Shown: positions 3,801 to 46,330, numbered from the whole stretch's first letter. The stretch is 63,998 bases of DNA, filler included, from Chrysochromulina tobinii (GCA_001275005.1; 12 parts of 12 records of this genome joined end to end with filler, not necessarily neighbours in it); one strand, 5' to 3'. The notes: generated by a model not told the origin, from the letters alone. Numbers and translations are program-made.

Positions 3801-5516
3801 CGTCAGCTCCGCACGCATCAAGTTCGGATGCTGCTCGGCTATGTCGAGCGAGGCTCGGTGGAAGTTGCGGTAGCCCATCTGAATCTGCGCGAGCAGCTCC
3901 ATGGCCTCCTCCTGCTTGAGCATCAGCTCGTTCTTGTCCGCCGCACGCCGCATGTCTGTCAGCACTTTCTCCAGCTGCATCTCATTCGCCTTGTCGGCCT
4001 CCTCATGCTCCTCGCGGCAGGTGTGGAGCTCGTCACGTAACGTCTCGTACAGCTCGGACGTGCGCCGCACATGCTCATCGAAGAGGCGGCCCGCCATCTC
4101 GAAGCGCTTGACCAGCTGCAGCGCATCCTCGTGCAGCCGCAGCCGCTGCGTCGCTTCGGCCGCCTCCACCCGCTCGAGCAAGTCCTGCGCCTGCTCCGCG
4201 CGCAAGTCAACGAGCGGTACGACCTGCGCCGCAATCACCGATTCGAGTGCCCGAGGCTCCAGGTGAGCAAAGTGGTAGAGGCGCGCGCGCAGGTACTTGC
4301 ACGCCTCGGCCACCTCGGCCGCCACCGCCGCCTCGGCCTGCTGCAGCGCGTCGTGCGAGGCGCGCGCTGACGCCTCCTCATCAGCATCGAGCTGCTCGAG
4401 CTCCTCACGAGATCGGTTGGCAGCGGCCTCGGACAGCTCCGGCGGGCGCAGCTTGCCCAGCTGCACGAGGACCGAGAAGCGGCGCTCATTGAATGCCTGC
4501 TGCTTGCTCGCCAGCTCGCTCAGCAGCAGCCGCTGCGACTGCGGCGCGAGCACCTCGGGCGAGTGCAGGTAGCTCTTGAGGGTCTGCAGCGCATTCTCGT
4601 GGCGCAGCCGACGCCACTCAAGCTTTCGTGCCTCCCATTCCCTCAGCGAGCTCTTGTGACGCTTGACGTCCTCGACGCGCAGCTTTGCGAGCAGCTCCGC
4701 GTGCACCTCGCGGTTCGCCAGGATGAGCAGGTTGACGCTGTGTGTCTCCGTCTCGACGAAGCGCTCGAGCGCCGGTGGCAGCAGGTGCGCCGTCGCCACG
4801 AGCAGCTCAAGCAGCGTCGTGAGCTCGGCCTCGACCATCTCGCGCCGCTCGTTCTCCACCTTGGTCAGGTCGCGCTCAAATTGGTCCACCCAGCCGCGCC
4901 GGCGCGTCAGCTCCTCGTCGATGCGAACCCACGCGGAGTCTACCTCGTCCATCTCCATCTGCAGCAGAAAGTCGTCGGCGAGCTCATCGAACATGCTCTT
5001 GAGCTCGGCGTCGTTGAGCACCATCAGCGCCTTGAAGGAGCGCGCGACCGCTCCCGTGCGCGCCTCGAGCTCCACCTCCATGGAGCCCATCCGCTTCTTG
5101 AACGCTTCGATCGCGTTCTCGTGCCGCGCCTTGCGGGCGATGAGCATCTCCTTCATGCCCGCGTGGTTGGTGGAGGAGACGGCCGGCATCATCTTGCCGT
5201 GATTTTGCAGCGTTTGGGACTCGCCAATCGCCACCTCCTGCTCCGTGAGCGGCGGCACGGACTGCCGCTTGCGGCCGGGCATGTCCTTGACCTTGGGTGG
5301 CGCCGGCAGGGAGGCGCCATCCTTGGCATGCGAGATCTTGGGCGCGACGAGCTTGGTCAAGAGGCCGAGCTCCGCAGTGAACGGGTTGCTCGCCATCTGC
5401 CCAGCCATCCGCGGCTCGGCCGCCGGCTCCTTCAGCGCCGCCGGCATGTTGCTGTGAGGCCCCTCAGCGCGGCGTCGCAGTCCCCAGCCAGCAAAGGACC
5501 CTGCGCTGAAAGTCAA
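843..5516 (-). CDS. CCDC180: Coiled-coil domain-containing protein 180 (DUF4455/DUF4456, flagellar-associated); true start probably ~5448 or downstream
   Basis: 1557-aa intronless coiled-coil ORF; N-terminal 'ARKARHENAIEAF', 'LFSEGGIFNPIE' and C-terminal 'TRAQRSVITARDRVYESY' resemble CCDC180. Confidence 0.8.
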   Translation of the reverse strand: MTFSAGSFAGWGLRRRAEGPHSNMPAALKEPAAEPRMAGQMASNPFTAELGLLTKLVAPKISHAKDGASLPAPPKVKDMPGRKRQSVPPLTEQEVAIGESQTLQNHGKMMPAVSSTNHAGMKEMLIARKARHENAIEAFKKRMGSMEVELEARTGAVARSFKALMVLNDAELKSMFDELADDFLLQMEMDEVDSAWVRIDEELTRRRGWVDQFERDLTKVENERREMVEAELTTLLELLVATAHLLPPALERFVETETHSVNLLILANREVHAELLAKLRVEDVKRHKSSLREWEARKLEWRRLRHENALQTLKSYLHSPEVLAPQSQRLLLSELASKQQAFNERRFSVLVQLGKLRPPELSEAAANRSREELEQLDADEEASARASHDALQQAEAAVAAEVAEACKYLRARLYHFAHLEPRALESVIAAQVVPLVDLRAEQAQDLLERVEAAEATQRLRLHEDALQLVKRFEMAGRLFDEHVRRTSELYETLRDELHTCREEHEEADKANEMQLEKVLTDMRRAADKNELMLKQEEAMELLAQIQMGYRNFHRASLDIAEQHPNLMRAELTSVHTQLIEYHQLVSNEQEGEEEEGEGEEDAEPAAASVAAPDGAPPGAPDGAPPPLMNEDQDLSGTKVLDDGEQNLWATFGFQFDEKMEAQLALEDEQAGLDAANRNDPPPDPYLLETREGAKYRMRTDLEVAEAAMAVVRAKAAAEAEAAAAAAAAAEAEAAAAAAAADPKGKKGGAPPPAPPEAAPQPPAAEEAEPPPELPTLSAAEKISQLIPASYDGTPVLMPLTSWSSLPQDIELRVKLACECLNYHDAHAVAMGKRARHECGVLVKQLTRELDERLMSHQPRAGAVETDMAAERDQELLAHRERFVRHVKSVTSRRGMLSAALETKLETVIKAEKQHKDKLGALQRALGSEKNNHSATLNRLSREAEALHAAYTRVTREMFDELEAASKAQLKEVLGVNTKFRDSWTLFSEGGIFNPIEQARFIERLAKVDEDAKAEAVAQAERLAALREAQLQRAHEGQEGFRASFAVNKEDIVHIEQLKMQSGKCTADVRIVLAESAAQEAALDAQTEELSRLVKSVTRPGESEADNAEFDTDAARAAAQAKLARAILESSEDMRAKLLHRALFLDMLASEGMPKTAPKVSLDPPDPSTRPPPPPPPPPDPKAKKGAEPPPPPPAPDPNEPEMGEEAKPPVPLKQLVTAARAKHEGLMIAMCAKYHQERGERPITRPSLIPENAELEADKVRARLDQMVHKAHDDWYHAGKTLRKQLLVIWRVLNSVGPSVFDDLSRACRKAAYNGCRTLHKAYAPLAKDRAAKRQLHEASLKPTMRNAGAQAELRALAMAEADRSAAEVSAATELRDALLAVETEQAQVLERRLVFLSGSILKLLDAQLTEDDLIANDDPPPDIHHGIKKKLRMETREMFPHPGQPQAGRPFYTYTWPGLPLGELTPDTCETRAVGADAPPESKEAIPRSLELQANQTRAQRSVITARDRVYESYRLYYAGRVREIRTACDTALTEARRWEAGWLKLVDHMEIKPPQ

Positions 5517-5877
5517 CCGATCTCGCCACGACGGCGCTTCGAACGCCGTGTTGTGCAGCCAGAAAAAACGTCATGCACGCTGTGCTTTAGCACGGTGTTT
5601 TGGCACGGTGCAGGGCATTTTACACGGCCAACGAATGTACGTTAACAAACAGCTTAGGACGCAAATATCGGGTTCGAAAGTCGCACAATGTGCGCGCGGT
5701 CGCGTTGAGCAGCATCAGCAGCCCTAACATCTATCCACGCTCTCATGACAACACCCCTATTTGTGCTCCTGACATTCAATTCCCAAACAGGTGTAGGGTC
5801 CCGGCCCTTACAAACATGAAAAATAGTGACCACTCCTCCTTGGGTCATGAAGTGAACCTTGTTCAGTTGTTCTACTC

Positions 5878-9743: not shown

Positions 9744-10030
9744 GAGTGTGGTATGCGTGCGGCCCTCTGTGCTGTGGAAAGAGAGAGGATGAGGAGAGCC
9801 GCGGGATCAGCTATCGTAGGCGCAATCGCGCCAGCGCGGCTTGAGCGTTCCTATGTCTCCTATGTGGTTGTTGCGTGATGCGCGGCGAAACACTTCTAAT
9901 TGATCAGAATAGAAACTGAAATGCATGCTCGGTCGCCGTGCAGAAGCATTCAGCCCACGTTCCGAAAGTGAAAGTCTGAAGATCCGTTCACGGTCTGACG
10001 TTCACACACCTCTTCCACGGGTCCCATGAA

Positions 10031-11155
10031 ATGAGACCTCTTGGCACTCTCTTCCGCCAGCCTGCCTTCTGGGACGAGCGTAATGTGCTCAGCGACGCGT
10101 GCCTGCCACTCTCCGCGTTGTACGCGGCGGTGACACGGCTGCATGAATTGAGCGCCGCGGCATCTTACCGTGCTCCAGTTCCGGTCGTTTGTGTGGGCTC
10201 TGCGCTCGTCGGCGGCACTGGAAAGACGCCAGTCACGCTCGCGATTGCAGAACGCCTTCGCGCTCGTCGCCCGGGTCTCTCGGTGCATGCATTGTCGCGA
10301 GGATATGGCGGTGCCAGCAACGCTGCTGCGCTGCGAGTGAATCCGCGTGAGCACACTTCCGAGTACGTCGGCGATGAGCCGCTTCTGCTGGCCGAGCTTT
10401 CACCTACGTGGATCGGTGCGCGAAGGTGTGATACGGCGAAAGCTGCGTGCGCTCAAGGCGCCGATTTGCTGCTGATGGACGATGGGCTGCAGCACACGAC
10501 GCTGCATCGCGACATCAGCTTGCTATGCCTCGACGCCCGCTACCTGATCGGCAACGGGCGAGTGGTGCCGTCGGGCCCGCTGCGCGAGCCGATCGCACGG
10601 ACGGCCGCGCGCTCGGATGCGGTGCTGCTTGTCGAGCCTGCCGCTGTGGCCGCCGGCGGCCGCAAATCCACCGCCGATGAGGTCGAGGACGATTCCAGTG
10701 GCGTTGCGGCAGAGGCTGATGAGAGGCTTCGCGAAACGCTGGCACTGCCTGCGTCGATGGTCATCTTGCGCTCGGCACTCGAGCCGTCACCGACGGTTGC
10801 TGCCGCACTCGCCGGCCGGCGTGTCCTCGCCTTCAGCGGCACGGCACGCCCGCAGCGCTTCTTCGACACTCTCCGAGCGCTAGGCTGTGAATTCCCGTCG
10901 CACCCTCTGTCGCTCGCGGACCACGCTCCGCTCTCGGCGGCCTTGCTCGAGAAGCTGCGCGAGCAGGCTGCATCGCATGGCGCCCAGCTCGTGACTACGA
11001 GCAAGGATGCAGCGCGTCTCGCTCCCTCGCAGCTCGAGGGCGTCAGTGTACTCCCGGTGGCCCTGCGTCTGCGTGCAGGCAGCGCGGAGTGGCTCGACCG
11101 CGCCATTGACGAAGCGTTGATCGCGTGCCAGTCTCGCAAGAATGAGCAATTCTAG
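10031..11155 (+). CDS. lpxK: Tetraacyldisaccharide 4'-kinase (lipid A 4'-kinase)
   Basis: PVPVVCVGS-x-x-GGTGKTP P-loop, LSRGYGG, VGDEPLLL, MDDGLQH, P-x-GPLREP, VTTSKDAARL. Confidence 0.93.
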   Translation: MRPLGTLFRQPAFWDERNVLSDACLPLSALYAAVTRLHELSAAASYRAPVPVVCVGSALVGGTGKTPVTLAIAERLRARRPGLSVHALSRGYGGASNAAALRVNPREHTSEYVGDEPLLLAELSPTWIGARRCDTAKAACAQGADLLLMDDGLQHTTLHRDISLLCLDARYLIGNGRVVPSGPLREPIARTAARSDAVLLVEPAAVAAGGRKSTADEVEDDSSGVAAEADERLRETLALPASMVILRSALEPSPTVAAALAGRRVLAFSGTARPQRFFDTLRALGCEFPSHPLSLADHAPLSAALLEKLREQAASHGAQLVTTSKDAARLAPSQLEGVSVLPVALRLRAGSAEWLDRAIDEALIACQSRKNEQF

Positions 11156-12138: not shown

Positions 12139-13301
12139 TCATCGCATCTTGTACGATGGTGACATCTTGGCCTCGTCGCCCTGGTCGCCGTGGAAGAAGC
12201 GCACCCGTTGGCGCACCACATATGGAAGCCGCATGTAGACTGGCCGGAAGCCCTGTATGTTGTGGATCAATCGGATGCGGCGCCACTCGCTCAGGTTCAT
12301 CGCGAGGCCCGTGTGCGCGTGGTAGCGCAGCGGCAGCTCATACAGCGGCCGGTAGAAGCTCCTCCAAAGCTCCTGATCCCCTCCGTCATAGCACGAAATC
12401 GACCGTCCACCTTCCTTATTTGGAGGGTTGAGCTGGTAGAGGTGCGCGAGCACACGCGCAAATTCGCGTGCGGAGGGTGAGAGCACGATGAGGCCGCTCG
12501 TCGGCGCGCAGCGCTCCTTTTGCGGCCGCACCGTCGCCGTGTGGAAGACCTGCGGCAATCAGTGGCCATCAGTGGCCATCAGTGGCCATCAGAGGCCATC
12601 AGTGGCACTCAGTGGCATTCAGTGGCTTACTCAGTGGCACTCAGTGGCACTCAGAGGTACTCAGTCTCGAGCGCCATGTGAACACAGACCATCGCTGGCG
12701 TCTCCGCCGCCGCCAGCTCGTCGATGTTGCGTATGAGGGTCACGTCGTTGTCGAGCACGATGACCTTGGCGAACTGCGTGAGCGCGAGGGCCGAGAGTTT
12801 GCTGAACGAGTGCATGTGGAACGCCGAAGTCCAACGGGGTGGGACGACGGCCGGGCTCTCGATCGTCGACGCGGCGCCGAGCTGCGAAAAGGTCTTCTCG
12901 AGCGTGGCGTTGCGCTCGCTGCCGCGTGCTACGACGATGTGGATGGGCAGCGTCGTGTTCACCGCGCGCGCCGAGCGGAGCAGCCACGTGATGCGATTGA
13001 TCTCACGGGTGTACGCCATCCAAGGCACATTCGCGTACTTGTGTCGCACCCAGCTTCGGTTGAAGTGGAAGAAGAGGAGCATCGCGACGTCGCTGCTCGT
13101 ACTGGCGCGGCTGCCACTGCTGCTGCTGCAAAAGGCCGACGCAGAGCATTCGAATGTGGAATGGCATCCATTCGAGCACATGCAAGCATCGGCACGGAGC
13201 TCGCAAGGGCCGAGCTGGTCTGCTGGCGGCGACGGTGGCATCGTGTGCAGCTTGCTGCATTGGTACACCACAGTGCTGCCGTTAAGTTGCGCGCCTGCCA
13301 T
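12139..13301 (-). CDS. Glycosyltransferase family 8 (glycogenin-like); 2 exons (12690-13301, 12139-12549)
   Basis: FSKL...LTQFAKVIVLDNDVTLIRNIDEL (DxD), SGLIVLSPS, YDGGDQE, LPLRY; GT..CAG intron 12550-12689 joins the frames. Confidence 0.85.
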
Positions 13302-13969: not shown

Positions 13970-16900
13970 TGCTGGGCAAGTTGATACTGTGCCATAGACG
14001 TCGGTGGGGGTCATTGGCCAGGAGCAGACGGTGCCTCCAAAGACACAGACATTGGGCCCCTGGGTGGAGAATAGGGGACGCGTGGTCACAAAGGAGGACA
14101 CAAAAGCAAGACATCCCATTAGGGTACGGGAACTTAGCGCGCGCACATTTGAAGCTGTGTTCCCACTGATGTTGCTCGATGAGATGGCCACTGTGCCGGC
14201 ATTGACGGCGACACCGCCGCCCTGGGCAAACAACCAGCAAAAGGTGAGTCTAAAGGCGATGGGAACGTATGAGCGTGAGCGCGCACATTGCTAGCTATGT
14301 TTTCATTGATGGTGCACGATGAGAAGGTCACCGTGCCACGCTCGACAAAGACACCGCCGCCCTGTAAACAACGAGCAAACGTGAGTCTGCCATGTGAGGA
14401 GGAAATCTACTCTGAGGCACGTACATCATGCTGTAGTTGACCAGAGCATCGGCCGCAATTGTGCAAACGAGAATCGAGGTAAGAAATGTCAGCCATTTCC
14501 CCATCAGGGCGATGGGAACTTCTGAACATGAGAGCGCACATTTTGAGCTCTATTCCCACTGATCGAGGAAGACGTAATCGTGACTGTGCCATAAAGGGTA
14601 TTGACACCGCCTCCCTGCAAACAACGAGCAAAACGTGAGTCTCACATTGGGGCGATGGGAAATGATAAATATAAGCACGCACTCCTTTCGCTGCGTTCCC
14701 GTAGATCGAGGAAGACGTTATCGTGACCGTGCCAGAAAAGACGTAGACACCGCCTCCCTGCAAACAACAAGCAACACGTGAGTCTCCCATGGGGATGGGG
14801 CATCTTCCCATCGGGGCGATGGGAAGTGTTCAAGGTCTCTGCGGCACGTACTCCCTGTAGTGGACCGGAGCGTCAGCCGCAGTTGTGCGAGCGAGAGTCG
14901 AGGCAAGCACGTCAGCAACTTTCCCATCGGGGCGATGGGATAATTTCAAGGTCACTGTGGCACGTACATACTGTAGTTGACCAAAGCATCGTTTGCAGTT
15001 GTGCAAGCGTGAGTCAAGGCAAGAACGTCAGCAACTTTCACATCGGGGTGATGGGAAACTTTGAACATGAGCACGCACATAGGAAGCTGTATTCCCGTAG
15101 ATCGAGGAAGACGTTATCGTGACCGTGCCGTAAGAGACGTAGACACCGCCTCCCTGCAAACAACAAGCAACACGTGAGTCTCCCATGCGGGCGATGGGAA
15201 ATTTTCAAGGTCTCTGAGTCAAGGCAAGAACGTCAGCAACTTTCACATCGGGGCGATGGGAAACTTTGAACATGAGCACGCACATAGGAAGCTGTATTCC
15301 CGTAGATCGAGGAAGACGTTATCGTGACCGTGCTGTAAGAGGCGTAGACACCGCCTCCCTGCAAACAACAAGCAACACGTGAGTCTCCCATGCGGGCGAT
15401 GGGAAATTTTCAAGGTCTCTGCGGCACGTACCTCCTGTAGTTGACCAAAGCATCGTTTGCAGTTGTGCAAGCGTGAGTCAAGGCAAGAACGTCAGCAACT
15501 TTCACATCGGGGCGATGGGGAATTTCGAAATCAGCGCGCACAGAGTTAGCTGTGTTGGAGTAGATCTGGGAGTTCACGATTGACACTGTGCCACCACTGA
15601 ATTGGACACCACCGCCCTGCAAACAACGAGCAAAACGTGAGTCTCCCGCAAACAACGAGCGAGATGTGATCTCCCATCGTGACAATGGGATCTTTTGAAC
15701 ATGAGCACGGACATAATTAAAAGCTGTATTCCCGTGGATCGAGGAAGACGTTATCGTGACCGTGCCGGAATTGCTGACGTAGACACCGCCGCCCTGCAAA
15801 CATCGAGCGGTACAAGCGAGAGTCAAGGCAAGAACGTCAGCAACTTTCACATCGGGATGATGGGAACTTTTGAACATGAGCACGCACATAGCGAGCTGTA
15901 TTCGCGTAGATCGAGGAGGACGTTATCGTGACCGTGCCGGAACCGACGTAGACACCGCCTCCCTGCAAACAACAAGCAAAACGTGAGTCTCCCATGGGGG
16001 CGATGGGAAATGTTCAAGGTCTCCTGCAGCAGGTACATAAGGCTATAGTTGACCAGAGCGTCGGCAGCAGTTGTGCGAAAGAGAGTCGAGGCAAGCACGT
16101 CAGTAATTTTCCAATAGGGGCGCTGGGAAATTTCAGGTCTCTCAGGCACGTACCGACTGTATAGTTGACCAGAGCGTGGGCCGCAGTTATGCAAGCGTGA
16201 GTCGAGGCAAGCACATAAGCAATCTTCCCATGGTCGTGATGGGAAGACCTCTCTGCGGCACGTACCCCCTGGAGTTGACCGGAGCGTCACAGCCGCGACG
16301 CAGTTGTGCAAGCGTGAGTCGAGGCACGCGCGTCAGCAATTTTCCCATCGGGGCGATGGGAAATATTCAAGGTTGCTGCGGCACGTGCATTCTGTAGTTG
16401 CCCGAAGCGTCGGCCGCAGTTGTGCAAAAGTGAGTCGAGGCAAGCTCGTCAGGAGTTTTCCCATCAGGGCGATGGGAACTCTTGAATAAGAGCACGCACA
16501 TTTGTAGCAGCTGTGTTCCCACTGATGGCGCATGATGAGATGGCCACTGTGCCACCCTGGACATTGACACCCCCACCCTGCAAACAACGAGCAAAACTTG
16601 AGTCTCCCATGAGAGCGATGGGAACTATGAGAGTTTCAGGCGCATATGGCACGTACGTCCAACTGGTAGATTGAGGCAGCACCCATCATCAACGACGGGA
16701 GTCGAATGGGGCGTGTCAGCAAGGCATCCCATTAGGGCAATGGGGAATATACAGGTCTCTGCGGCAGCCACGTACCCCCTGTACGTACCCCCTGGTGATG
16801 TTGAGCCCGATCAGTTGCACGACGCCCAACGAGCCCGGGTTGATGTACAGCACACGGCGCCGACTCGAGGAGCTTGCTTGTGCATCCAGCACGACCGAGC

Positions 16901-19655
16901 CTGCCACCTCCGCCTCGATGACAACGCTCCTGGTGACGGTGAGCTCGGCGTTGAGGAAGTAGGTGCCGGGGGCAAGGACAATGCGGCCGACGGCTGTGTT
17001 GGCGAGTGCACTGGTCAGGCCCGCGCTGGTGCTCACCGCAGTCTGCAGCTCACGGCGGTGGTTGGGCATTAGGGGTGTCTGCGGAGACCTCCAAACGGGT
17101 GGAATCGACGGTTGTGGAATGGGCAGGTACGGCGACGGTTGTGGAATGGGCAGGTACGGCGACGGTTGTGGAATGGGCAGGTACGGCGACGAGGATTGAG
17201 GTGGCGTCGGCCCAGAGTCCAGAGGGTACAGGGACGGCGTGGGTGGGGGCATCAGTCGGGGAGGCGAGGGCGGCCAGGGTGGCAAGGGCGGAGGCCGTGA
17301 CCGTGGGGTCCGCGACGCGGATGAGGGCGGCAAAGGAGTTTGCGGGAACGAAGGGGCTGTCACGAGGCTGCTGCCTGCAGAGGTGCTGGATGTGCTGGTC
17401 AGGCTGGGGACGACGCCGGCCTGGTCCTGCTGCGCACGACGGTGACTGGGCGCATGCTGGACTGCGTGCATCCCGGCAACAGGGTGGACGCTGGTTTCGG
17501 CGTTGGCCAAGACTGTCATGCCAGAGGGGTCAGGCGGGGGAGGCGGACACGTCCCGCACGCGACCGGGCAAGTGGTGCGTGCAATGGAATAGGAAGCGCA
17601 AACAGAGGGCTGTGCTAAGAAGTAGGAGCACGGCATGGAGGCGCCGCTTAAGTCAAAGGCGCCGCTGTTCACATCATCGGCGCATGGAGTGGGCGGAGGC
17701 GGCCGCGATGGCGGCATCTGCGCCGACTCTGCCCGATGCGCACCAGTCCCATCGCCATCGGGTGGTGCCGTTGTCACCACGGCACTCGACCGCGGGACGA
17801 CGACGAAAACGAGCAAGGCCAATGCGAAGCGCTGGTTACGGTGCTTCTGATTCGCAAATCGCCCGTTTGGACCGGAACGTCTCCGCGACGCGCAAATCGC
17901 CCAGACGAACGACGCAAGCCTGAGCAATACGAATGCGAGGTCAAAGCACTCCACCAACTCCCAAGGCACACCGTCCAAGTCCGCCGCAGCCTTGATGGGG
18001 TCCCCCGCAGTATCCTCGCTCGCGTTCGTCTGGTCGTACGGGAACGAGTACTTGACGTCGGCGTCCCAGATTGTGCTCGTAATGAAGAGCTCCTCGAGAG
18101 CTATCGTGAAGACCTCGCCCTTGCGCAGCCCGTAGTCGGCCGTCATCGAGTCACGCTCGGCGCGAGTGCACGCAGCGTAGCGGCAGATGGCGCACGAATC
18201 GAGGGTGGACTCACCAGACAGGTTGCAGAAGAGGCCAGTGCCGCCGACTGCGGTGGACAGGAACGGGCCCGACGCCGTGTTCGGGCGCGAGCCGTCGGTG
18301 CCACATAGCGGACCTTGCTTGATGATGTGCGCCACGAGGCGGCTTGCCATCGGCGTGGCCGCATGGAGCATCTCACGGCCAGCAGAAGGCAAGTCGGTGG
18401 GCCAGATGAAGACGAGGGACTCGGAGCAATCGTTGAGATAGCAGGTGAGTTTCGTACCCACCGCCATCGACGCATCAGGGCTCTGCGAGGCGGGGGTGTT
18501 TGCCAATGGCTCTGCCAACATGTTGCGCTCGCTGTCGACCGGGTCCAACGAGGAGGCGCGCGTCGCAAACGTGGGCGCGATGAAGAAGGCCACAAGCCGC
18601 TCGAGCACCGGCACAACATTGCTGCTGACCACCTCGAAGAAGAAGTCGTTTTGGATCTTGTCCGTGAAGGCGTTCGAGCCGCCACCCACCGAGGTGAGGA
18701 AGGTCTCGTACTCGCCCTCCTTGGGGCACGTGGCATTTGAGGGGAACAGCATGTCCTGCGCGATCGCCGGGTACTCCTTCAGCTCCGAGTAGCTGCCCGT
18801 CGGCACCTTGACTGAGGCGGAGAAGCTCGTGTTCGTGGTGGCGCTCAGTTTGTAGCCAAACAGCTTCTTCATGCCGTTGTAAAGCTCGAGGTACCAGTAC
18901 GAGCGCTTTTCCGTGTGGGCGAGCGAGAAGTTGCCCCGGTGACGCCTCGTCACGGTGGGGTTGTAGGGCATGTAGGGCGAGTCGGGCTCGGTCGCCATGA
19001 GCTTCGGCTCCGGCGACATGTAAGGGTTCAACGCATCCAGCTCCGGGCTCGGCGGCGAGGCGGAAGTGTTCGCCACGGGCTCCGCGAACAAATTGCGCTT
19101 GCACACCACCTGGTCCGACGAGGCGCGCGTCGCAAACGTAGGCGCGGTGGACAAGGCGTCAAATATGAAGAGGGCGCGATGAAGATCACACTCGCAGCCG
19201 GGGGCGCCATTGTCGCGAGCAGCGTTGGAGGTGTAGAAACATGCATTCGAGCAGATGCTAGGCGCCGTGTCAGTGCTTGGCGACACAATGCTGAAGCCGG
19301 CGGTGGGGCTCTCGATGATGTTCTTCGACGTGAAGAACAGGTACGTGTTGAGCGACATCGTCGGGAGCGCGGACGGGGTGTCGGTGCTGCTTTGAGTGCA
19401 AGTTTCGATGCGGATGCCGGGGTGCGTCGAGATGTTGGCGAGGATCATGTTGCCGAACTTGCGGCCCGTGTCCTCGCGCATGCGCATCATCGCATCGCCC
19501 ACGCGCGTCGAGAGGCCGCCGGCGCCCACGAGGGTCATGCTGTAGAAGGCAGGGAGCGAGCGGCAGCGCGGCGTGCTCACGAATCTCAAAATGCCCACGG
19601 CGCCGAGCATCGCAAACAGGAACAGGCCCTTGCCTCGCATTGTTTCGAAGGGCAA
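13970..19655 (-). CDS. Multi-exon surface protein with pectin-lyase/Pmp-like beta-helix repeats. Large exon 16776-19655, then repeat exons 16500-16577, 15888-15962, 15713-15793, 15542-15616, 15284-15358, 15079-15153, 14683-14757, 14540-14614, 14287-14361, 14147-14221, then 13970-14059 (truncated), plus candidate microexons
   Basis: RRELQ...IVLAPGTY...VVLDA...RRVLYI...GLNITRG cap; ten exons of type GGGVxVxxGTVTI(S/T)SxxIxGNTAxx, each bounded by CAG| and |GT, all phase 0. Confidence 0.85.
14060..16775 (-). repeat. Tandem array of homologous intron modules with hairpin TTCCCATCG-CCC-CGATGGGAA
   Basis: Recurrent GTGCGTGCTCATGTTCAAA.., TTCCCATCGCCCCGATGGGA, GGTCAACTACAG-(3/6 nt)-GTACGTGCCGCAGAGACC, ACTCACGTTTTGCTCGTTGTTTGCAG. 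Confidence 0.9.
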
Positions 19656-20324
19656 GTAGATGAGAGCTCTGGTGGTCGGTCCGATGCGCGCGCGCGGTCG
19701 ACGAGTCGTGGCCCTCGTCTCGATCGGCTATGAAGAGGCCGCGCTCCCAACCGTCCCACTCGCACCGCGAACTTACCGTTCATGAACGAAACTTACTTTC
19801 CTTGGAAGATTGTGTCGGCGACACGCACGACGTCCGTCCTCGGCGAGTAAACCTGGTCGCGCGTTGAAACTGTGAATTGCAGATCATCAACGCTACACAA
19901 GCAGCCTGGTGAGCGCGATAAACCCCGGTCCCTGCTAAAGCTAGACCAGGCTTACATCGCGGTCAAGGGTAGTCGACGGGGGTGTAACGGCGACGGGGGT
20001 GCTCTCGCGTCAGCGGGGCAACTTGATTACCATCGTTAGTACGCGTTAGTAGCGAGACTATGCACAACTATGCAGGGTGCCAATCGACAGATCTCGGAGC
20101 GTAGACCCCCGAACCGCGGAAATTCGGCTTGCATCGTTTAAGGTAGTCCGCTCGCACTCATTAGGGTAATTTTGGAAATCAGCCCTACATAAATCAATGA
20201 GTCCCAAGGCCCCCGGGGCGGGGGNNNNNNNNNNNNNNNNNNNNNNNNNNNNNNNNNNNNNNNNNNNNTTAATTAATTAANNNNNNNNNNNNNNNNNNNN
20301 NNNNNNNNNNNNNNNNNNNNNNNN

Positions 20325-21641: not shown

Positions 21642-24600
21642 TCACATCCCCCCCGCCTCTGCGCCAACTGCCGCCGCCGCTGCCTGCACCGTGACGCATA
21701 TGCCGCGGCTCATGAGCACGTGGCGTTGCTTCATCAGGATGACTGCGTCGGCCTCGGCCGCCTTGACGGCACCCAGGAGCAGCTGCTCCTGTGCCACCGC
21801 CTGCTCGTAGAAGATGACGAGGGCCATCAGTGTTCATCCATCGCACTCAATGGCCATCAAGGGCCATCTCAGGGCCATCAATGGCCATCCCAGGGCCATC
21901 CCAGGGCCAGTCCATCTGGCAATCAGTCGCAATCAGTCGCAATCAGTCGCAATCAGTCGCAATCAGCCGCAATCAGTCGCAATCAGTCCATCTGGCAATC
22001 AGTCGCAATCTGTGGCCATCCATGGCCATCAAATGGCGGTCCCATGTCCAATCCATCTGGCAGAATGAGATGGCACTGAGATCGAGATCACCATCTCGCA
22101 CGCACCTGCTGCACGAGGGCGGTGAGCCGTTGGGGTAGCTTGTCGATCCTCACGCCCTCAGGCAGACCGCGTACCAGCCGTTGGGTGTCGAGCCCGAGGC
22201 CGAGCGGCTCTGCGGCCACGAGCTCGAGGAGTGCTTCGCGCGCGTGCTCCCGCCCCGCATGCATGCAGTGGTCGATGAGCGCCTACCATATTAGGCAACC
22301 ACGAGAGATCAAGCGAATGCTCATCAGAGGCAATCAAGCGAATGCTCATCAGAGGCAATCAAGCGAATGCTCATCAGAGGCAATCAAGCGAATGCTCATC
22401 AGAGGCAATCAAGCGAATGCTCATCAGAGGCAATCAAGCGAATGCTCATCAGCGAAAGACAAGTTCGGCACCCACCTGCCACAGCTCCACCTCCTGTGGC
22501 CGCTGGCGCACAAAGTCCAGCGCCGCGCGCAAGTCCCCCTGTGAAGACTCGAGCATGAGACGGAGCGCCTCCGCGTGAGCGCCCAGCCGGCCGAGCACGA
22601 ACACCTGCCCTTCGATCAGCTGGTGACGCCGACACACGTCTAACGCGACCTCGAGTGGGTAGTGAGGCGAGCCCTTGGATGCAAGGGGAGTCGAGCGCGC
22701 TGTGATGAGCACTTGCATGCAAGGCCGGTGCTCAGGTGGCAATCAACGTACCTTGAGAAAGGGGAGCAGCAGCGTAGGCTGATGGCGAGCGTAGAGGACG
22801 AGCTGACGGCCATGGAAGGGGGCGCCCAGGTGGACGTCGTAGAGGAAGAGGGCGTGGAGATACTCGAACAGACGACCCTCGGCCACGCCGCTGGGCGAGG
22901 GTGGCGCGCCGTCCGGAGCGCCCGACGCGGCGCTCGCTTGCTCCATGGCGGCGGCGGCGTCGAGCTGCGTAACCACCGCCTCGGGCGGCACGGCTTCCAC
23001 ATAGCGCAGCAGCAAGGCGAGGGTCTTCTCCCATGAGTGGCTCGCGAGCTGGCTCACCTGATGAGGGAGGCAATCACATGCAATCATGGATCATCAGCGG
23101 TTCCCATGAATGGCTCGCGAGCTGGCTCACCTGATGAGGGAGGCAATCACATGCACGCATGCAACCATGGCTCATCACCTTGTCACGGCAGATGAGGGAG
23201 GCAATCACATGCACGCATGCAATCATGGCTCATCACCTTGTCACGGCAGTAGCCATGGACCGAGTGCAGCTCAATGAAGTGGAAGACATCGACCTCATGC
23301 GGCGGCAGTTGAAGCAAGAGCCGCAGGGCTGCCTCATGCTGCTTCGCATGGCAATGGAGCAGCGCCATCGACTCCATGAGGCGAGGCTGCGCCAATAAAC
23401 CGCCGGGCAGCCGACGCGCTATATCGAGCACTGCGCGTTGCACCACCGCCGGCCGGCAGTCAGAGGCAATCAGAGGCAATCAGAGGCCATCAGAGGCCAT
23501 CAGAGGCGAGTCTTCACCTGCGCGTTGCACCACCGCCGGCCGGTAGACGCTCGAAGGCCAGCGCCGCAGCAACAGCAGCAAGTGCGCACCTGGGTCGTTG
23601 GGCATGCCCGCGACGGCGCTTGCGCCGTGTCGAGCGCCTGCGCCTGCGCCGCCGCCCGTACCGGCCGCGATCGCGGCCGGCGGCGTGATCGCGGCGGCAA
23701 GCGCCTGCTCATAGAGCGACGAGTCTCGTCAATTAGAGGCAATTAGAGGCAATCCGAGGCAATCCGAGGCAATCCGAGGCAGTCAGAGGCGAGTCTTCAC
23801 CTGCTCGTAGGTCTCTTGAGGTAGCTGCGGGTTGCTGAGCGGCACATGAGGCGCAAGCTGCGGCAGAGCTCCCGCCGCACCGAAGGCGCGAATCCAGCGT
23901 TGCCAAAGCTCGGGCCGCCTGCCTAAATAGGAAGCACAGAGAGTGGCCGCTCGTTCCAACTGCCCGGCGCGCAGCGTGCCGCCGATGTGCACCTCGGCAA
24001 TGTCGAGCACCTGATGAGGGAGGCCAATCAACATGCAATCAGACTCAATCAGTCTGATGGGATCCTCGGCAATGTCGAGCACCTGATGAGGGAGGCCATT
24101 CACATGAACTCAGAGGCAATCAGCATGCCGCCGAGTTGCGCCTCGGCTGAGGGAGGTCATCCACGGCAATCGAGCGTCATCAGTGGCAATCAAGCGTCAT
24201 CAGTGGCCATCAATCTCGAGTACCTTGTGCGCCTTGAGCTCAGCCTCGTGGCGTGTCGCGACAGACAGTGCAGCCTCGACCTTGCCGCGCTCGAGCAGCC
24301 ATCCGACGCGGTCGTCCCAATCGCGCGAACGGGCCACGATGATGTCCCGAGGTGAGACGATGTACGCGGTGGTCTCGGGGAGCAGAGACTCGTCGCCGTC
24401 GATGCCAAAGCGAGAAGGCTCGCCGCCAGTGCCGCCGCCGCCGCCGCCTCCACTGCCGCCGCCTCCCCCCCACCCACCACCTCCTCCTCCTCCTCCTCCT
24501 CCGCCGCCGCCGCCGCCGCTACCCACTTCCTCCGCGACGCCACCGAAGCCTTGCGCCGTCTCGTCCGCGACCAGGAACGAGTGCCAGGCGGCCGTGCGCG

Positions 24601-25785
24601 GCGGCAGCGCGAGCCCATACGAGCCGCACCGAAGGTCTCCGAAGCCCTCGACGGAGAGCGCATCCGTCAAGAATTCGTCATTTTGGCGCGAGATCAAGCG
24701 GAGCTCAGGCCGCTGCGCGGACGCGGGCGCCGCGCCTCCCGGTCCGTATTTATCCTCATCGGCGGGCTCGCACACGTACGCGAGCACCAGAAGATCCGAC
24801 TGCAGGCCGCGTCCGTGCTCGTATCGAATGGTCACGCCAGCGAGACCACAGATGTAAAAGTCCGTCTGGATCAGGGCGATGATCTCCATGTACGTGGCGA
24901 CCGAGGCGGCCGAGCCCGCGCCCACGCCGCCCAGCGGCGCGCCGCCTGCTGCACCCGCGCAGCTGCTGCCACCCAGCTGCAATACTCGCTCACGCACCCG
25001 CCCAATCTTGATGGTGTCGGCCCACCTGCATGCAATGCGGGTGCCCATCAGAGCCAGTCAGTGCCAATCAGAACCAATCAGAGCCCATCAGAGCCCATCA
25101 GAGCCCATCAGAGCCAATCTGTGAATCAGAGCCAGTCAGAGCCAATCAGTGCCCACCCGATGATGAGCTCGATGCGACTCTCCCAACGTAGATGGCACCG
25201 AAAGGAGGCGGGCGGCGGAGCGCCGGGCGTGCGCTCGATGTACGAGACGCGCTTCGCGTGCTGCGCGTCGTACACCTTGACGCCCTGGTCGTTGGCCCAG
25301 GCGAGCATGGGCCCACTCATCGCGATCGCCTGCACGGGCCCCTCGCCCGCATGCACCACGTTATCCTTGGAGCCGAACCAGCCGCGCGAGTTGATGATGA
25401 GCTGGCCTTCGAGGCCGCCGGTCGCGAAGACGCGCCGCGCCGCGTACTCACTGTCCAGTGCGATCGCGCGCACCGGCCGGTGGTACCAGTGCGTCGAGGC
25501 CTCGCCGCCGAAGAGCGACGAGACCACGACGGTCCCGTCGGTCGAGCACGAGCCGACAAACTCGCCAGTCACGTCGACGCAGATGTCTGTGACCGCGGCC
25601 GAGTGCGGCGAGAAGCGCCGGATCTCGTTGCCGCCCAGGTCGAGCACGTGCACCGCGCCGCCTTCGGTGCCGAGCGCGAGGAACTTCACGTGCGCCGTGA
25701 GGCACGTGGCCGCGTCCGCCGCGAGGATCTTGGCCACCGAGCCGCCAAGGCGCTGGTACTTGAAGGTGGGCTCCTGCTCGGCCAT
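21642..25785 (-). CDS. VPS41: Vacuolar protein sorting 41 (HOPS subunit); 9 exons, introns at 25026-25156, 24011-24223, 23705-23800, 23431-23517, 23058-23236, 22674-22751, 22283-22475, 21801-22105
   Basis: EPTFKYQRLG, FLALGT, SRGWFGSKDNVVHAGEGPV, AWANDQGVKVYD, IIGWADTIKI, YIVSPRDIIVAR..DDRVGWLLE, LLPFLK-GSPHYPLEVALDVC, VFVLGRLG; splicing restores a continuous frame. Confidence 0.93.
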
Positions 25786-39510: not shown

Positions 39511-42292
39511 GTGGCCGAGGGGTTGTAGTTGAGCGCCTGTGGGGTCGTGCAGCCGCTGATGAGGTACGTGCACAACGAGGCGACGTTGACGTTGGCCGCG
39601 GGCATGTAGTTGCTGGCGGCAGTGTTCATGCAGCCCCGGACGCGGTACGTGCACGAGGACGGGCTGTTGACGTTGGCGTTGCTGTTGTAGTTGAGCGCCG
39701 CGGTCGCCATGCAGCCGGTGACACGGGCGATGCACGACGAGGTGGCCGTTGGGTTGCCCGGCGTGGCCGACGCCATGTAATTGAATGCATTGACGTTCTT
39801 GCAGCCCCGGACGTGGTACGTGCAAGCGGACTGAAGGTGGGACGTGGCCGAGGCCGAATAGGTCGATGCCGCCGGGTCCATGCAGCCCGACGTCTGCAGC
39901 CGGCGGCCAGGAGCGTCCTCTGACGAAACCTTGGACGAAATCTCTGATGACGAAACTTCTGATGACGAAACTTCTGATGACGAAGCCTCTGACGAAACTT
40001 CGGTCGAGGCCTCCTCCACGAGGCGGCGGCCCGAGCCCGCGCACGAGCCCGGGATGGCGAAGGTGTTCCGCGCATTGTAGTTGGGATCGCCCACGGTCAT
40101 GCAGCCGCCGTAGGAGCAAGAGCCAGCCTGCTGCACATTGTAGGCCGGGTTGAAGTTGGCCGCAACAGGATCGGTGCAGCCTGGGGCGTCTGGGCATGAT
40201 CCGTCGCTAATCGTGGCCTGCGCATTGTAATTGGAAGCCAGCGAGTTCATGCAGCCGTAGAAGATGCACGAGCCGGGGAGCAGCGTGTTGTAGAGCGCGT
40301 TGTAGTTGGCTGCCGCCGAGTTCGTGCAGCCCTGGACGCTGGGAACGCACGGATGGGCGTTCGCGTTGCTGTACGTGGCGGACGGGTTGTAGTTGAGGGC
40401 GTCCGAGCTCATGCAGCCAGCCACGGCGAAGACGCAGCAGTTGCCCGTGGGGCAGTAGGTGGCGCTCGCCTGATGAGGGAGACCATCAGAGGCCATCAGA
40501 GGTCATCAGAGGCCATCAGAGGCCATCAGGGCGCTCGCGTTGCGCTCGCCTGGTAGTTGACGGCCGCCGTGTTCGTGCAGCCCGGCACAGGCGGCGCGCA
40601 GCCGCCGTTGTCGTACGAGGCCGACGGGTTGTACTGGGGGAAGCGCGAGTCGGTGCATCCGCCGAGGAAGCACGAGCCGTCGTCGACGACGGCAAAGGGG
40701 CGGTAGTTGTACGCGGCGGTGTTCGTGCAGCCGGCCGGCGGCGGCGAGGGAGGCGGCGGCGGCGACGGCGAGGGGAAGGGCGAGGGCGGCGGCGAGGGCA
40801 AGTCTGCAGGCGGATCCGAGGGCGAAGGCAAAGGCGGGCCGCCGGGAGGCGGTGCTGGCGGGTAGAGGAGCCGTGCCTGGTGACTCACGGCACTCGAGGG
40901 CACGCCAAGGGTAGAGGCGGCCGCGGAGGTGACGAAACCCTCGAGGGCACTCATGCTGCCGGTCGAGGCGCCGGCGGAGGTCGCGTCCGGTGTGGCCGTG
41001 CTGATGGTGCATTCGACGGTGTGGAGGGCCTCGATGACGTCGACGATGGAAGACGTTGCGACGCCGGCGGCCGTCGCGAGCGCCGTCGCGAGCGCGCTCG
41101 GCATCCCCGGAAGGAGAGGGAGTCCGATGACTGCCTCCGGCGACAGCACGCGACGAAGCCGCAGCTTCGTCAGGCGGGCGAGAGATTGGAGCTCGCGCGA
41201 GCTCGACGCTCGGGACGGCGCTGTCTCGTCGGGGAGTGCTCGGTACGGCGCGGTTTCGTCGGTGAGTGCTCGGGACGGCGCGTTTTCGTCGGCGAGTGCT
41301 CGGTACGGCGCGGTTTCGTCGGTGAGTGCTCGGGACGGCGCGTTTTCGTCGGCGAGTGCTCGGGACGGCGCGGTTTCGTCGGCGAGTGCTCGGCGCGAGC
41401 TGCCCGAGGTGATGTCGAGTGTCACCCCGCACGTGTCGGAGCCCGTCGCGCTGCCACACATGAGTTGGGTGGCTGCGCTCACCATCGCCGCACTGCTGAG
41501 GGCGGTCGAGTGCGTCACGTTGACGTTTGAGCTCTGCGTGACGATCAATGCGGTGAGCGCCGTGCCGCTCGCGCCCGAGACAGCGCTAGCGATGGAGGCG
41601 GAGAGTGCGGCCACGGTTGGGCGCGCCGAGGAGGACGCCACGTCGATGGTCAACGTCGTGTGCGTGCCGTATGCGCGGGGGGCGTACGGCGGCGGCGGGT
41701 ACGGCGGAGGTGGAGACGTCGATGATGCTTCAAAGTGGAAGCTCGGCGAGAGGAGCCCGAAGGACAAGCCCACCGCCACGGCAACGATGGCGACGATAGT
41801 AGCGACCGCGAAGGCCATCCAACAGCGCACTTTCGTCCCACGCTTTTCCAACCAAATATCTGCGGGCTTGGGTCTGCTCGAATCGTCAGGTGCAGGGCCG
41901 GTGCGAGCGCGTGCTATGCGATTCGAGCGGTGCAATGGATTGCTGTCCATCTCGTAACGACGTGACGAAGCGTGGGCGGTCTTGGGGTCTTTGGCGGGGG
42001 CCGCTGGCGTCAACGACGTGAACTCAATGCCAAGGGTAAGCTTTGGATCCTGCATGCTCGATGGAGACGGGCTGGGCAGGGGCGAGGGCGGTCGTTCGCC
42101 TCTGCGAGATGCTTTTGCAGCAGCAGCAGCGGTAGCGGTGGCCTCGTTTTCATCGCGTCTCCCAGAGAAGGATTCGATGAAGTCCTTCATGGAGTCCACG
42201 GGGCTGGACCATCCCGTGTTAAAGCCCGCCATGCTCTGCTGCCTCGCGCCGAGGGAATGTAAGGACAGGGCTGCAGGAATTGGCCTCTGCAA
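39511..42292 (-). CDS. Type II membrane/surface protein with GCT/GCM-x-x-x-A-x-NYN Cys-rich repeats; GC-AG intron 40470-40549; 3' truncated
   Basis: TM helix WMAFAVATIVAIVAVAVGLSFGLL, Ser/Thr-rich domain, more than 12 repeats like GCTDPVAANFNPAYN...GSC. Confidence 0.8.
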
Positions 42293-42975: not shown

Positions 42976-43144
42976 CGATCGGTGGCGCCGCGATGGCCCA
43001 CGGGGCGAGGCGGAGGCGTCGCAGCTCGTGTCCGCGGTGAAGACGGCGATCGAGGCGCTCGAGGGCGCCTCATCACGTTGAGTATCTCGTGGATGTGCGA
43101 GCATCGTAGTAAAAAATAGAAATGAGTCCGAACCGGGACCGGAT

Positions 43145-46214: not shown

Positions 46215-46330
46215 GGTTTGGGCTCCGGCTTCGGGTTAGCGTTCGGGTTAGGGTTAGGGTCAGGTTCGGTCAGGGTAATTTCTTCTCTCACTCTCATCAA
46301 GACCCCCAACCCTAACGTTAACCCTAACGT
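46215..46330. repeat. Interstitial degenerate telomere-like repeats (TTAGGG/CCCTAA) in both orientations
   Basis: GGGTTAGCGTTCGGGTTAGGGTTAGGGTCAGG and CCCAACCCTAACGTTAACCCTAAC. Confidence 0.6.

What the first reader, a model, noticed from the sequence alone, without database searches (positions are those of the whole stretch)
21801..25156. Intron family made of decamer repeats flanked by a variable-length exon duplication that donates a splice site (candidate intron-gain mechanism)
SEEN: all 8 Vps41 introns contain (C)TGAT(T/G)GC-type units, usually as tandem decamers. Type A has a fixed 5' end GTGAAGACTCGCCTCTGA (introns 23431-23517 and 23705-23800) and its 3' end copies the upstream exon end. 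One such duplication is a perfect 26 bp (23431-23456 = 23518-23543), another is CTA(C/T)GAGCAG, so the AG is borrowed from the exon. Type B begins with a copy of the downstream exon start (GTGGGC; GTACTCGAGATTG vs GTGCTCGACATTG) and usually ends in the fixed CCTCCCTCATCAG. The decamer contains a CTRAY branch-like CTGAT. KNOWN: Introner DNA transposons co-opt short fixed-length TSDs and often have TIRs; variable long TSDs are typical of staggered-break repair or TPRT. INFERENCE: staggered breaks are filled by iterative, telomerase-like or slippage synthesis from a short template, creating immediately spliceable introns. Duplications range from perfect to decayed, implying ongoing activity.
Basis: partly seen in the sequence, partly recalled or inferred. 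Interest (0 to 1): 0.82.

Follow-up and report, generated by a model that had tools for sequence, protein, structure and literature searches.

The report
New introns patched from neighbouring introns
In a freshwater alga, many introns are a 12-50 base copy of the gene's own sequence wrapped around pieces of other introns, and two in this gene are absent from the reading frames of near-identical relatives, which likely means new introns are being made now, probably by DNA-break repair rather than by a transposon.

Summary
The Vps41 gene (Chrysochromulina, - strand) has 8 introns; RNA contigs join across 4. The 26-bp duplication at intron 4 is exact. In 133 metagenome loci, 118 of 130 introns ending in the shared acceptor are followed by GT/GC, and 48 of 130 carry a copy of at least 10 nt of the exon start (1.4% by permutation). 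Duplications run 12-50 nt (median 25), with microhomology at both joints, no terminal inverted repeats and no poly(A). Among 31 called ORFs of near-identical relatives, 15 lack introns 3 and 4, and more distant relatives lack most or all eight, so these gains are recent. Corrections: the 'type A fixed 5' end' is shared only by two neighbouring introns; the commonest form needs no fixed end; a second, non-decamer acceptor cassette behaves the same; the units are too varied (177 variants in 803) for one telomerase-like template. Most likely mechanism (inferred): staggered breaks are filled by microhomology-primed copying from existing, often nearby, introns. An RNA template is not excluded. My searches found no description of this system.

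The parts
21642..25785 (-). Vps41 gene, 9 exons (25785-25157, 25025-24224, 24010-23801, 23704-23518, 23430-23237, 23057-22752, 22673-22476, 22282-22106, 21800-21642), 953 aa
   Evidence: 100% identical over 203 aa to a Chrysochromulina entry P0103
25026..25156 (-). Intron 1, 131 nt, decamer array; starts with a 6-nt copy of the exon 2 start (7 with the shared G)
   Evidence: RNA contigs end at 25151; copy marginal, 2 of 60 controls as good
24011..24223 (-). Intron 2, 213 nt; starts with an 11/13 copy of the exon 3 start; holds a second acceptor (24095-24083) plus a 19-nt exon copy; ends in the shared acceptor cassette
   Evidence: RNA contig joins 24222 to 24008; 0 of 60 controls; present in relatives that lack introns 3 and 4
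23705..23800 (-). Intron 3, 96 nt; first 18 nt shared with intron 4; ends in a copy of the exon 3 end that supplies the AG
   Evidence: ORFs of relatives: present in 8, absent in 16
23431..23517 (-). Intron 4, 87 nt; five decamers; last 26 nt are an exact copy of the exon 4 end and supply the AG
   Evidence: ORFs of relatives: present in 3, absent in 20
23431..23456 (-). Intronic copy of the 26-bp duplication
23518..23543 (-). Exonic copy of the 26-bp duplication
23058..23236 (-). Intron 5, 179 nt, layered: 58-bp tandem holding 12 nt of the exon 5 end, an inner acceptor (23143-23131), a 28/29 copy of the exon 6 start (23130-23102), then the acceptor cassette
   Evidence: in relatives the intron begins directly with the exon 6 copy or is a different sequence
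22674..22751 (-). Intron 6, 78 nt; one decamer unit, a motif like the second (type C) cassette, decayed copy of the exon 6 end
   Evidence: RNA join; 0 of 60 controls; the 76%-identical relative P0001 also reads into an intron at this position
22283..22475 (-). Intron 7, 193 nt, 5.8 copies of a 25-mer that contains the unit; no clear duplication
21801..22105 (-). Intron 8, 305 nt, decamer and 11-mer arrays; weak copy of the exon end

Best explanation
These are spliceosomal introns built from a variable-length duplication of the gene's own sequence plus a filler of branch-point-like repeats, and they likely arise when a staggered DNA break is repaired by microhomology-primed copying from an existing, often nearby, intron. 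Shown: the duplication-plus-filler anatomy, splicing at GY-AG sites inside the duplications, microhomology at both joints, gene-sense orientation, a local bias in filler sequence, and presence/absence among close relatives (from called ORFs). Inferred steps: (1) two nicks 12-50 nt apart open a break; (2) a 3' end anneals by 2-7 nt to another intron and copies a piece of it: the branch-point array, a 3' cassette up to its AG, or a 5' end from its GT; (3) it returns by microhomology to the far side, duplicating the target; (4) the product survives if it splices, using AG|GT inside the duplication, or a copied acceptor with the duplication's GT/GC, or the duplication's AG with a copied or chance donor; (5) slippage and further rounds at the same junction lengthen and layer the intron. 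Each new intron is then a template for the next, so introns would spread contagiously without any encoded mobile element. The enzyme (polymerase theta-like end joining is the textbook candidate, from general knowledge) and whether the template is DNA or the nascent RNA were not determined.
For: Duplications: 48 of 130 at 10 nt or more vs 1.4% permuted; second cassette 24 of 62 vs 1.6%; 107 clean events, 12-50 nt, median 25, 64 with identical copies. Microhomology of 3 nt or more: 22 of 54 left joints vs 15%, 38 of 63 right joints vs 8% (events whose filler end was not in the repeat library were left out). No inverted ends (105 of 107 at most 2 nt), no A6/T6 run in 107 fillers, filler ends diverse. 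Local source: the 5' end shared by introns 3 and 4 and a 43-nt 3' end shared by two introns of L006 occur nowhere else in 517 kb; unit similarity 0.134 at 100-400 bp vs 0.040 between loci; filler matches its own 2-kb flank better than repeat-matched windows elsewhere, 18.5 vs 12.8 nt, 9 of 25 in the top tenth, p = 0.022. Orientation 62 same to 1 opposite within 1 kb. Splicing: 9 listed RNA joints in L006 all GY-AG. Recency.
Against: The local bias is partial: 16 of 25 fillers were not in the top tenth, only 6 of 28 neighbouring type B acceptors share 25 nt or more, and similarity was low at 1-3 kb (0.032) but high again at 3-10 kb (0.122, 43 pairs), which a simple distance rule does not predict. 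The two acceptor cassettes are shared genome-wide and end exactly at the AG, as a mobile family or an intron RNA would. Microhomology can also be left by later slippage, and selection for AG inflates the right-hand count. 17 of 56 isolated events fitted none of my simple splice classes. Many events duplicate an existing junction and found no new intron. Absence in relatives is read from protein ORFs, not from DNA. The loci were chosen by one motif from 3 of 64 parts of the collection.
Confidence: 0.5

Rival explanations
1. Same outcome, RNA template: pieces of spliced-out or nascent intron RNA are reverse-transcribed into a nick (target-primed reverse transcription by a LINE enzyme, or RNA-templated repair in cis), giving a variable target duplication.
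For: Type B and C fillers end exactly at the intron's AG and vary at the 5' side; strict gene-sense orientation; variable duplications with junction microhomology are also typical of LINE insertion (recalled); a nascent transcript would give a local bias too.
Against: Intron 3/4-type fillers keep a precise 5' end and many fillers are internal repeat pieces with neither end; no poly(A); no longer shared body or reverse transcriptase was seen, though none was searched genome-wide because no genome is held.
Confidence: 0.25
2. A non-autonomous transposon family (Introner) with unusually long, sloppy target duplications.
For: Two acceptor cassettes recur in many loci; Introners co-opt splice sites from their duplications, and one with a 4-bp duplication is reported in a marine Chrysochromulina MAG; an earlier AI note on this genome read it so (e1-2577349, unchecked).
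Against: Published classes have fixed 3-8 nt duplications; here 12-50 nt, continuous; no inverted ends, no end-to-end element, filler termini diverse; local sharing.
Confidence: 0.1
3. The introns are older; repeats and junction duplications only remodel them, and relatives without them lost them.
For: Nested duplications of existing junctions are common (introns 2 and 5); position 6 is shared with P0001 and position 5 with P0127; intron 5 differs in sequence among haplotypes.
Against: P0002, P0003, P0004 and P0009 read through all eight positions and P0001 through 1-5; intron 4 keeps an exact 26-bp copy while 20 close ORFs lack it; loss would be needed many times over.
Confidence: 0.1
4. A telomerase-like enzyme adds the decamer from one short RNA template at staggered breaks.
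For: Pure decamer fillers in register with 2-7 nt of microhomology and one strand orientation.
Against: 177 unit variants in 803 units, the commonest only 91; arrays are uniform within (65%) and differ between introns; a non-repeat cassette gives the same duplications; the only telomere-like repeat in the window is TTAGGG-type; no Rfam family over the gene.
Confidence: 0.05

Closest known systems
Intron gain by repair of staggered double-strand breaks in Daphnia pulex (PMC4202315, passages read)
   Same: Recent, polymorphic introns; a direct repeat of the adjacent exon end at the far end of the intron; repeated rounds of staggered events inside young introns.
   Different: Daphnia repeats are 4-12 bp (33 cases); here 12-50 nt in my census, the filler is a shared branch-point repeat or acceptor cassette traceable to other introns, and the scale is at least hundreds of loci.
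Tandem genomic duplication of exonic AGGT (review PMC3443670, passages read)
   Same: Both splice sites come from a duplicated AG|GT in 26 of 56 isolated events (22% in control windows).
   Different: The duplication is too short to be an intron alone and gains a 25-145 nt filler with branch-point-like motifs; where AG or GT is missing the filler supplies it.
Introners (10.1101/2022.06.06.494994 passages and part 3 read; 10.1101/2020.10.14.339549 parts 1-2 read; PMC12130899 passages read)
   Same: Genome-scale creation of similar introns; splice sites co-opted from a target duplication; G[T/C] after the acceptor; reported in a Chrysochromulina MAG with a 4-bp duplication.
   Different: Fixed 3-8 nt duplications and end-to-end similar elements there; variable long duplications, microhomology, no inverted ends, mixed and locally copied fillers here. 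The 2022 pipeline required similarity at both intron ends and removed low-complexity families, so it would likely have dropped these.
Patch-mediated break repair with nearby filler in rice and synthesis-dependent microhomology-mediated end joining (as summarised in review PMC7407515, passages read; primary paper not held)
   Same: Tandem duplications with insertions copied from DNA within about 200 bp of a break; templated insertions bounded by microhomology.
   Different: The passages read describe genome scars, not the making of introns.

Membership tests
Introner (transposon-derived intron family) | Many introns alike from end to end | tested here: not met
   Filler first and last 8-mers are diverse; only the 3' cassette recurs; the intron 3/4 5' end is local
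Introner (transposon-derived intron family) | Fixed short target-site duplication per family (or none) | tested here: not met
   12-50 nt, continuous, median 25 (search floor 12 nt); 9-40 nt for the single acceptor cassette
Introner (transposon-derived intron family) | Terminal inverted repeats (many, not all, families) | tested here: not met
   At most 2 nt in 105 of 107 fillers
Introner (transposon-derived intron family) | Splice site co-opted from the duplication | tested here: met
Introner (transposon-derived intron family) | Lineage-specific presence/absence | tested here: met
   (protein ORFs only)
Introner (transposon-derived intron family) | Autonomous partner element in the genome | not testable with these tools
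   No genome held
Break-repair intron gain (Daphnia type) | Direct repeat of adjacent exon at the opposite intron end, variable length | tested here: met
Break-repair intron gain (Daphnia type) | Polymorphic in natural populations, empty allele ancestral | tested here: inconclusive
   Empty and filled ORFs coexist and outgroups are empty; no DNA tree was built
Break-repair intron gain (Daphnia type) | Dependence on an end-joining pathway | not testable with these tools
   Needs genetics
Non-LTR retroposition (TPRT) | Variable target duplication with precise 3' end and variable 5' end | tested here: inconclusive
   Met by the two acceptor cassettes, not by intron 3/4-type or pure-repeat fillers
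Non-LTR retroposition (TPRT) | Poly(A) or A-rich tail | tested here: not met
   0 of 107; some LINE clades end in tandem repeats instead (recalled)
Telomerase-type repeat addition | One template giving one repeat unit genome-wide | tested here: not met
   177 variants in 803 units

The most novel reading that the evidence does not exclude
Introns in this alga reproduce without a transposon: breaks in a transcribed gene are patched with the branch point, acceptor or donor of a neighbouring intron, read from DNA or from the gene's own nascent RNA, so that each intron seeds the next. A once intron-free gene has filled with eight introns this way, two of them still segregating in lakes.
Probability: 0.45. 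Interest if true: 0.9.

Novelty: new variant of a known kind. Interest (0 to 1): 0.76.

Why it matters
Where new spliceosomal introns come from is an open question, and recent surveys conclude that ongoing gain is mainly due to transposons (PMC12130899, abstract passage). This looks like a genome-scale, still active route that transposon-centred pipelines filter out. It joins two proposed mechanisms, exon duplication and break repair, and adds a source for the branch point that they lack. Young events keep readable scars (exact duplications, microhomology, a nearby template), empty and filled alleles coexist, and the genus is in culture, so the mechanism can be tested directly.

Tried and rejected
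No whole genome is held, so the census rests on 133 metagenome loci (517 kb) picked by one 19-nt motif. The acceptor motif and a tandem decamer were not found in viral contigs; 5 single matches in bacterial genomes were not examined and are taken as chance. Rfam gave one weak hit below threshold; a hammerhead reading of the CTGATGAG motif (recalled consensus) was dropped because the second conserved motif is not in place on that strand. A search for empty sites among the fetched loci found only one shared site, filled in both. The flank comparison was contaminated by repeats and was replaced. The joint table was dominated by repeat matches and was not used. A fixed family-wide type A 5' end was rejected. 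Of 156 events, 49 were dropped before counting (repeat inside the duplication, filler under 20 nt or duplication over 50 nt). Literature: nine searches found no description of these introns; the passages on 'intron' and 'repeat' shown from the C. tobin genome paper (PMC4580454; 12 of 14 places) do not mention them. Supplements and the public Introner family files of the 2022 and 2025 surveys were not seen and may list a related Chrysochromulina family; most subscription papers are outside the library.

Full report
Gene and splicing. The stretch is a minus-strand Vps41 gene. Removing eight GT-AG introns gives an open 953-aa frame with the Vps41 propeller in exon 1 and the Vps41 TPR region in the matching entry P0103. 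The middle 203 aa are identical to P0103, which a source names Chrysochromulina; that this accession is C. tobinii is my recall. RNA contigs join exactly across introns 2, 6, 7 and 8 and stop at or beside the boundaries of the other four (the table was cut). One DNA run laid 3303 contigs on the 4.5-kb stretch, with the depth piled on the intron repeats, so the repeats are genome-wide.

The 26-bp duplication at intron 4 is exact. End copies at introns 2, 3, 4 and 6 score above all 60 exon controls; those at 1, 5, 7 and 8 are marginal. Period-10 arrays are clear in four introns. The 18-nt 5' end shared by introns 3 and 4 was not found in 517 kb of other loci, so it marks a neighbour relation, not a family.

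Census. A scan for the 19-nt acceptor motif returned 140 stretches as 133 loci, from 3 of 64 parts of the collection, about 2700 stretches estimated in all. Of 130 distinct terminal acceptors, 98 are followed by GT and 20 by GC (background 4% and 14%); 48 have a copy of 10 nt or more of the exon start upstream, against 1.4% for permuted exons and 9 of 130 for a shifted control. The result holds in two subsets of loci, 33 of 103 and 15 of 27. Of 156 events, 107 passed as clean: 12-50 nt, median 25, 64 with identical copies. A second acceptor cassette without decamers shows the same duplications, 24 of 62 against 1.6%. In a second gene (L006) a poly(A) run of another strain gave nine listed joints, all GY-AG, with donors inside exon copies of 25 and 15 nt. 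Of 443 tandem-repeat rows of period 9-12, 275 carry YTRAY against 50 in shuffles, so the unit is branch-point-like; actual branch use was not tested.

Recency. ORFs called on metagenome contigs show where relatives have introns, because the caller reads into them. P0002, P0003, P0004 and P0009 (45-62% identical in the central region, on contigs of 4.9-21 kb) run through all eight positions; P0001 (76%) runs through 1-5 and reads into an intron at 6. Among 31 distinct ORFs of near-identical relatives (P0091 96%, P0094 95%), 15 run through positions 3 and 4 (12 of them start inside intron 2 and 14 end inside intron 5, so they are genomic), 8 read into intron 3, 2 start in intron 4, one (P0112) has 4 without 3, and 5 lack 4 with 3 undecided (one cluster listed 15 of 23 members). 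So introns 3 and 4 segregate, and which was the template for the other is open. Intron 5 starts with the exon 6 copy in many of these ORFs and is a different sequence in P0119 and P0123. I saw proteins only, not the DNA.

Mechanism. Both joints overlap the repeat: 3 nt or more in 22 of 54 left and 38 of 63 right joints against 15% and 8%. Fillers (25-145 nt) have no inverted ends and no A-runs, and their ends vary. They are gene-sense, 62 to 1 within 1 kb, falling to 15 to 19 at 3.5-5 kb. Units are diverse overall (177 in 803) but more alike between close neighbours (0.134 vs 0.040; permutation maximum 0.087 vs observed 0.090 for 148 non-independent pairs); fillers match their own flank better than matched windows elsewhere (p = 0.022, n = 25); two introns of L006 share a 43-nt end seen nowhere else. 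Against this, most fillers have no evident local source, the 3-10 kb bin was also high, and two cassettes recur genome-wide. I read this as microhomology-primed copying from existing introns at staggered breaks, followed by selection for splicing and by slippage (0.5). An RNA template (0.25), a sloppy Introner (0.1), remodelling with loss (0.1) and a telomerase-like template (0.05) are the rivals. Many events re-duplicate an existing junction, so the same process also rebuilds old introns.

Known systems. It works like break-repair intron gain in Daphnia (4-12 bp repeats) combined with tandem duplication of AGGT, with fillers like those of patch-mediated repair (review). It spreads like an Introner but fails the tests for fixed duplication length and end-to-end similarity; the 2022 survey removed low-complexity families. 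Nine paper searches found no account of it; survey supplements were not seen. An earlier AI note on this genome (e1-2577349) saw the same footprint at another gene and read it as a mobile family; it is not independent support.

Verdict. A real, genome-wide and recently active way of making introns; new variant of known kinds; interest 0.76.

Noticed in passing
window 12550-12689 (-): Predicted 140-nt decamer intron in a mannosyltransferase-like gene (PF11051) whose start is a decayed copy of the next exon start; no RNA test.
   Followed up: partly
window 40470-40549 (-): Predicted 80-nt intron with a GC donor inside an 11-nt duplication and the shared acceptor cassette; no RNA test.
   Followed up: partly
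window 846-5570, 16719-19727, 43082-45892, 57382-60450: Long uninterrupted ORFs of 937-1575 aa (DUF4455/4456, peptidase M16, PARP plus EF-hand, ubiquitin-like): introns are clumped in some genes and absent from others, as contagious spread would give.
   Followed up: no
window, 11 places from 13870 to 62385: Paired 44-N spacers around 12 bases: the window looks like joined contigs, so genes across a spacer need not be neighbours.
   Followed up: no
window 23705-23735 (-): The exon copy at the end of intron 3 looks like 17 nt interrupted by 8 nt that begin with a fold-back of the preceding bases (6-bp inverted repeat). RNA run X18 leaves exon 3 at 23811, as if its exon matched the intronic copy (inference).
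   Followed up: partly
Vps41 position 5 in P0091, P0111, P0119, P0123: At least four different intron starts at one position among close relatives; P0123's translates like the cassette of the window's intron 6: parallel gains or fast replacement.
   Followed up: partly
L011, L016, L022: Head-to-tail arrays of short units each ending in acceptor plus GT/G (38-, 21- and 44-nt periods): possible recursive splice sites.
   Followed up: no
window 46233-46330: Short TTAGGG-type repeats on both strands inside the window.
   Followed up: no
window 9980-11152 (+): ORF with a full LpxK (lipid A 4'-kinase) domain, E 3e-81.
   Followed up: no
P0090, P0099, P0112, P0127: Gene callers translate these intron repeats into spurious peptide tails, which sit in public protein collections.
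   Followed up: no
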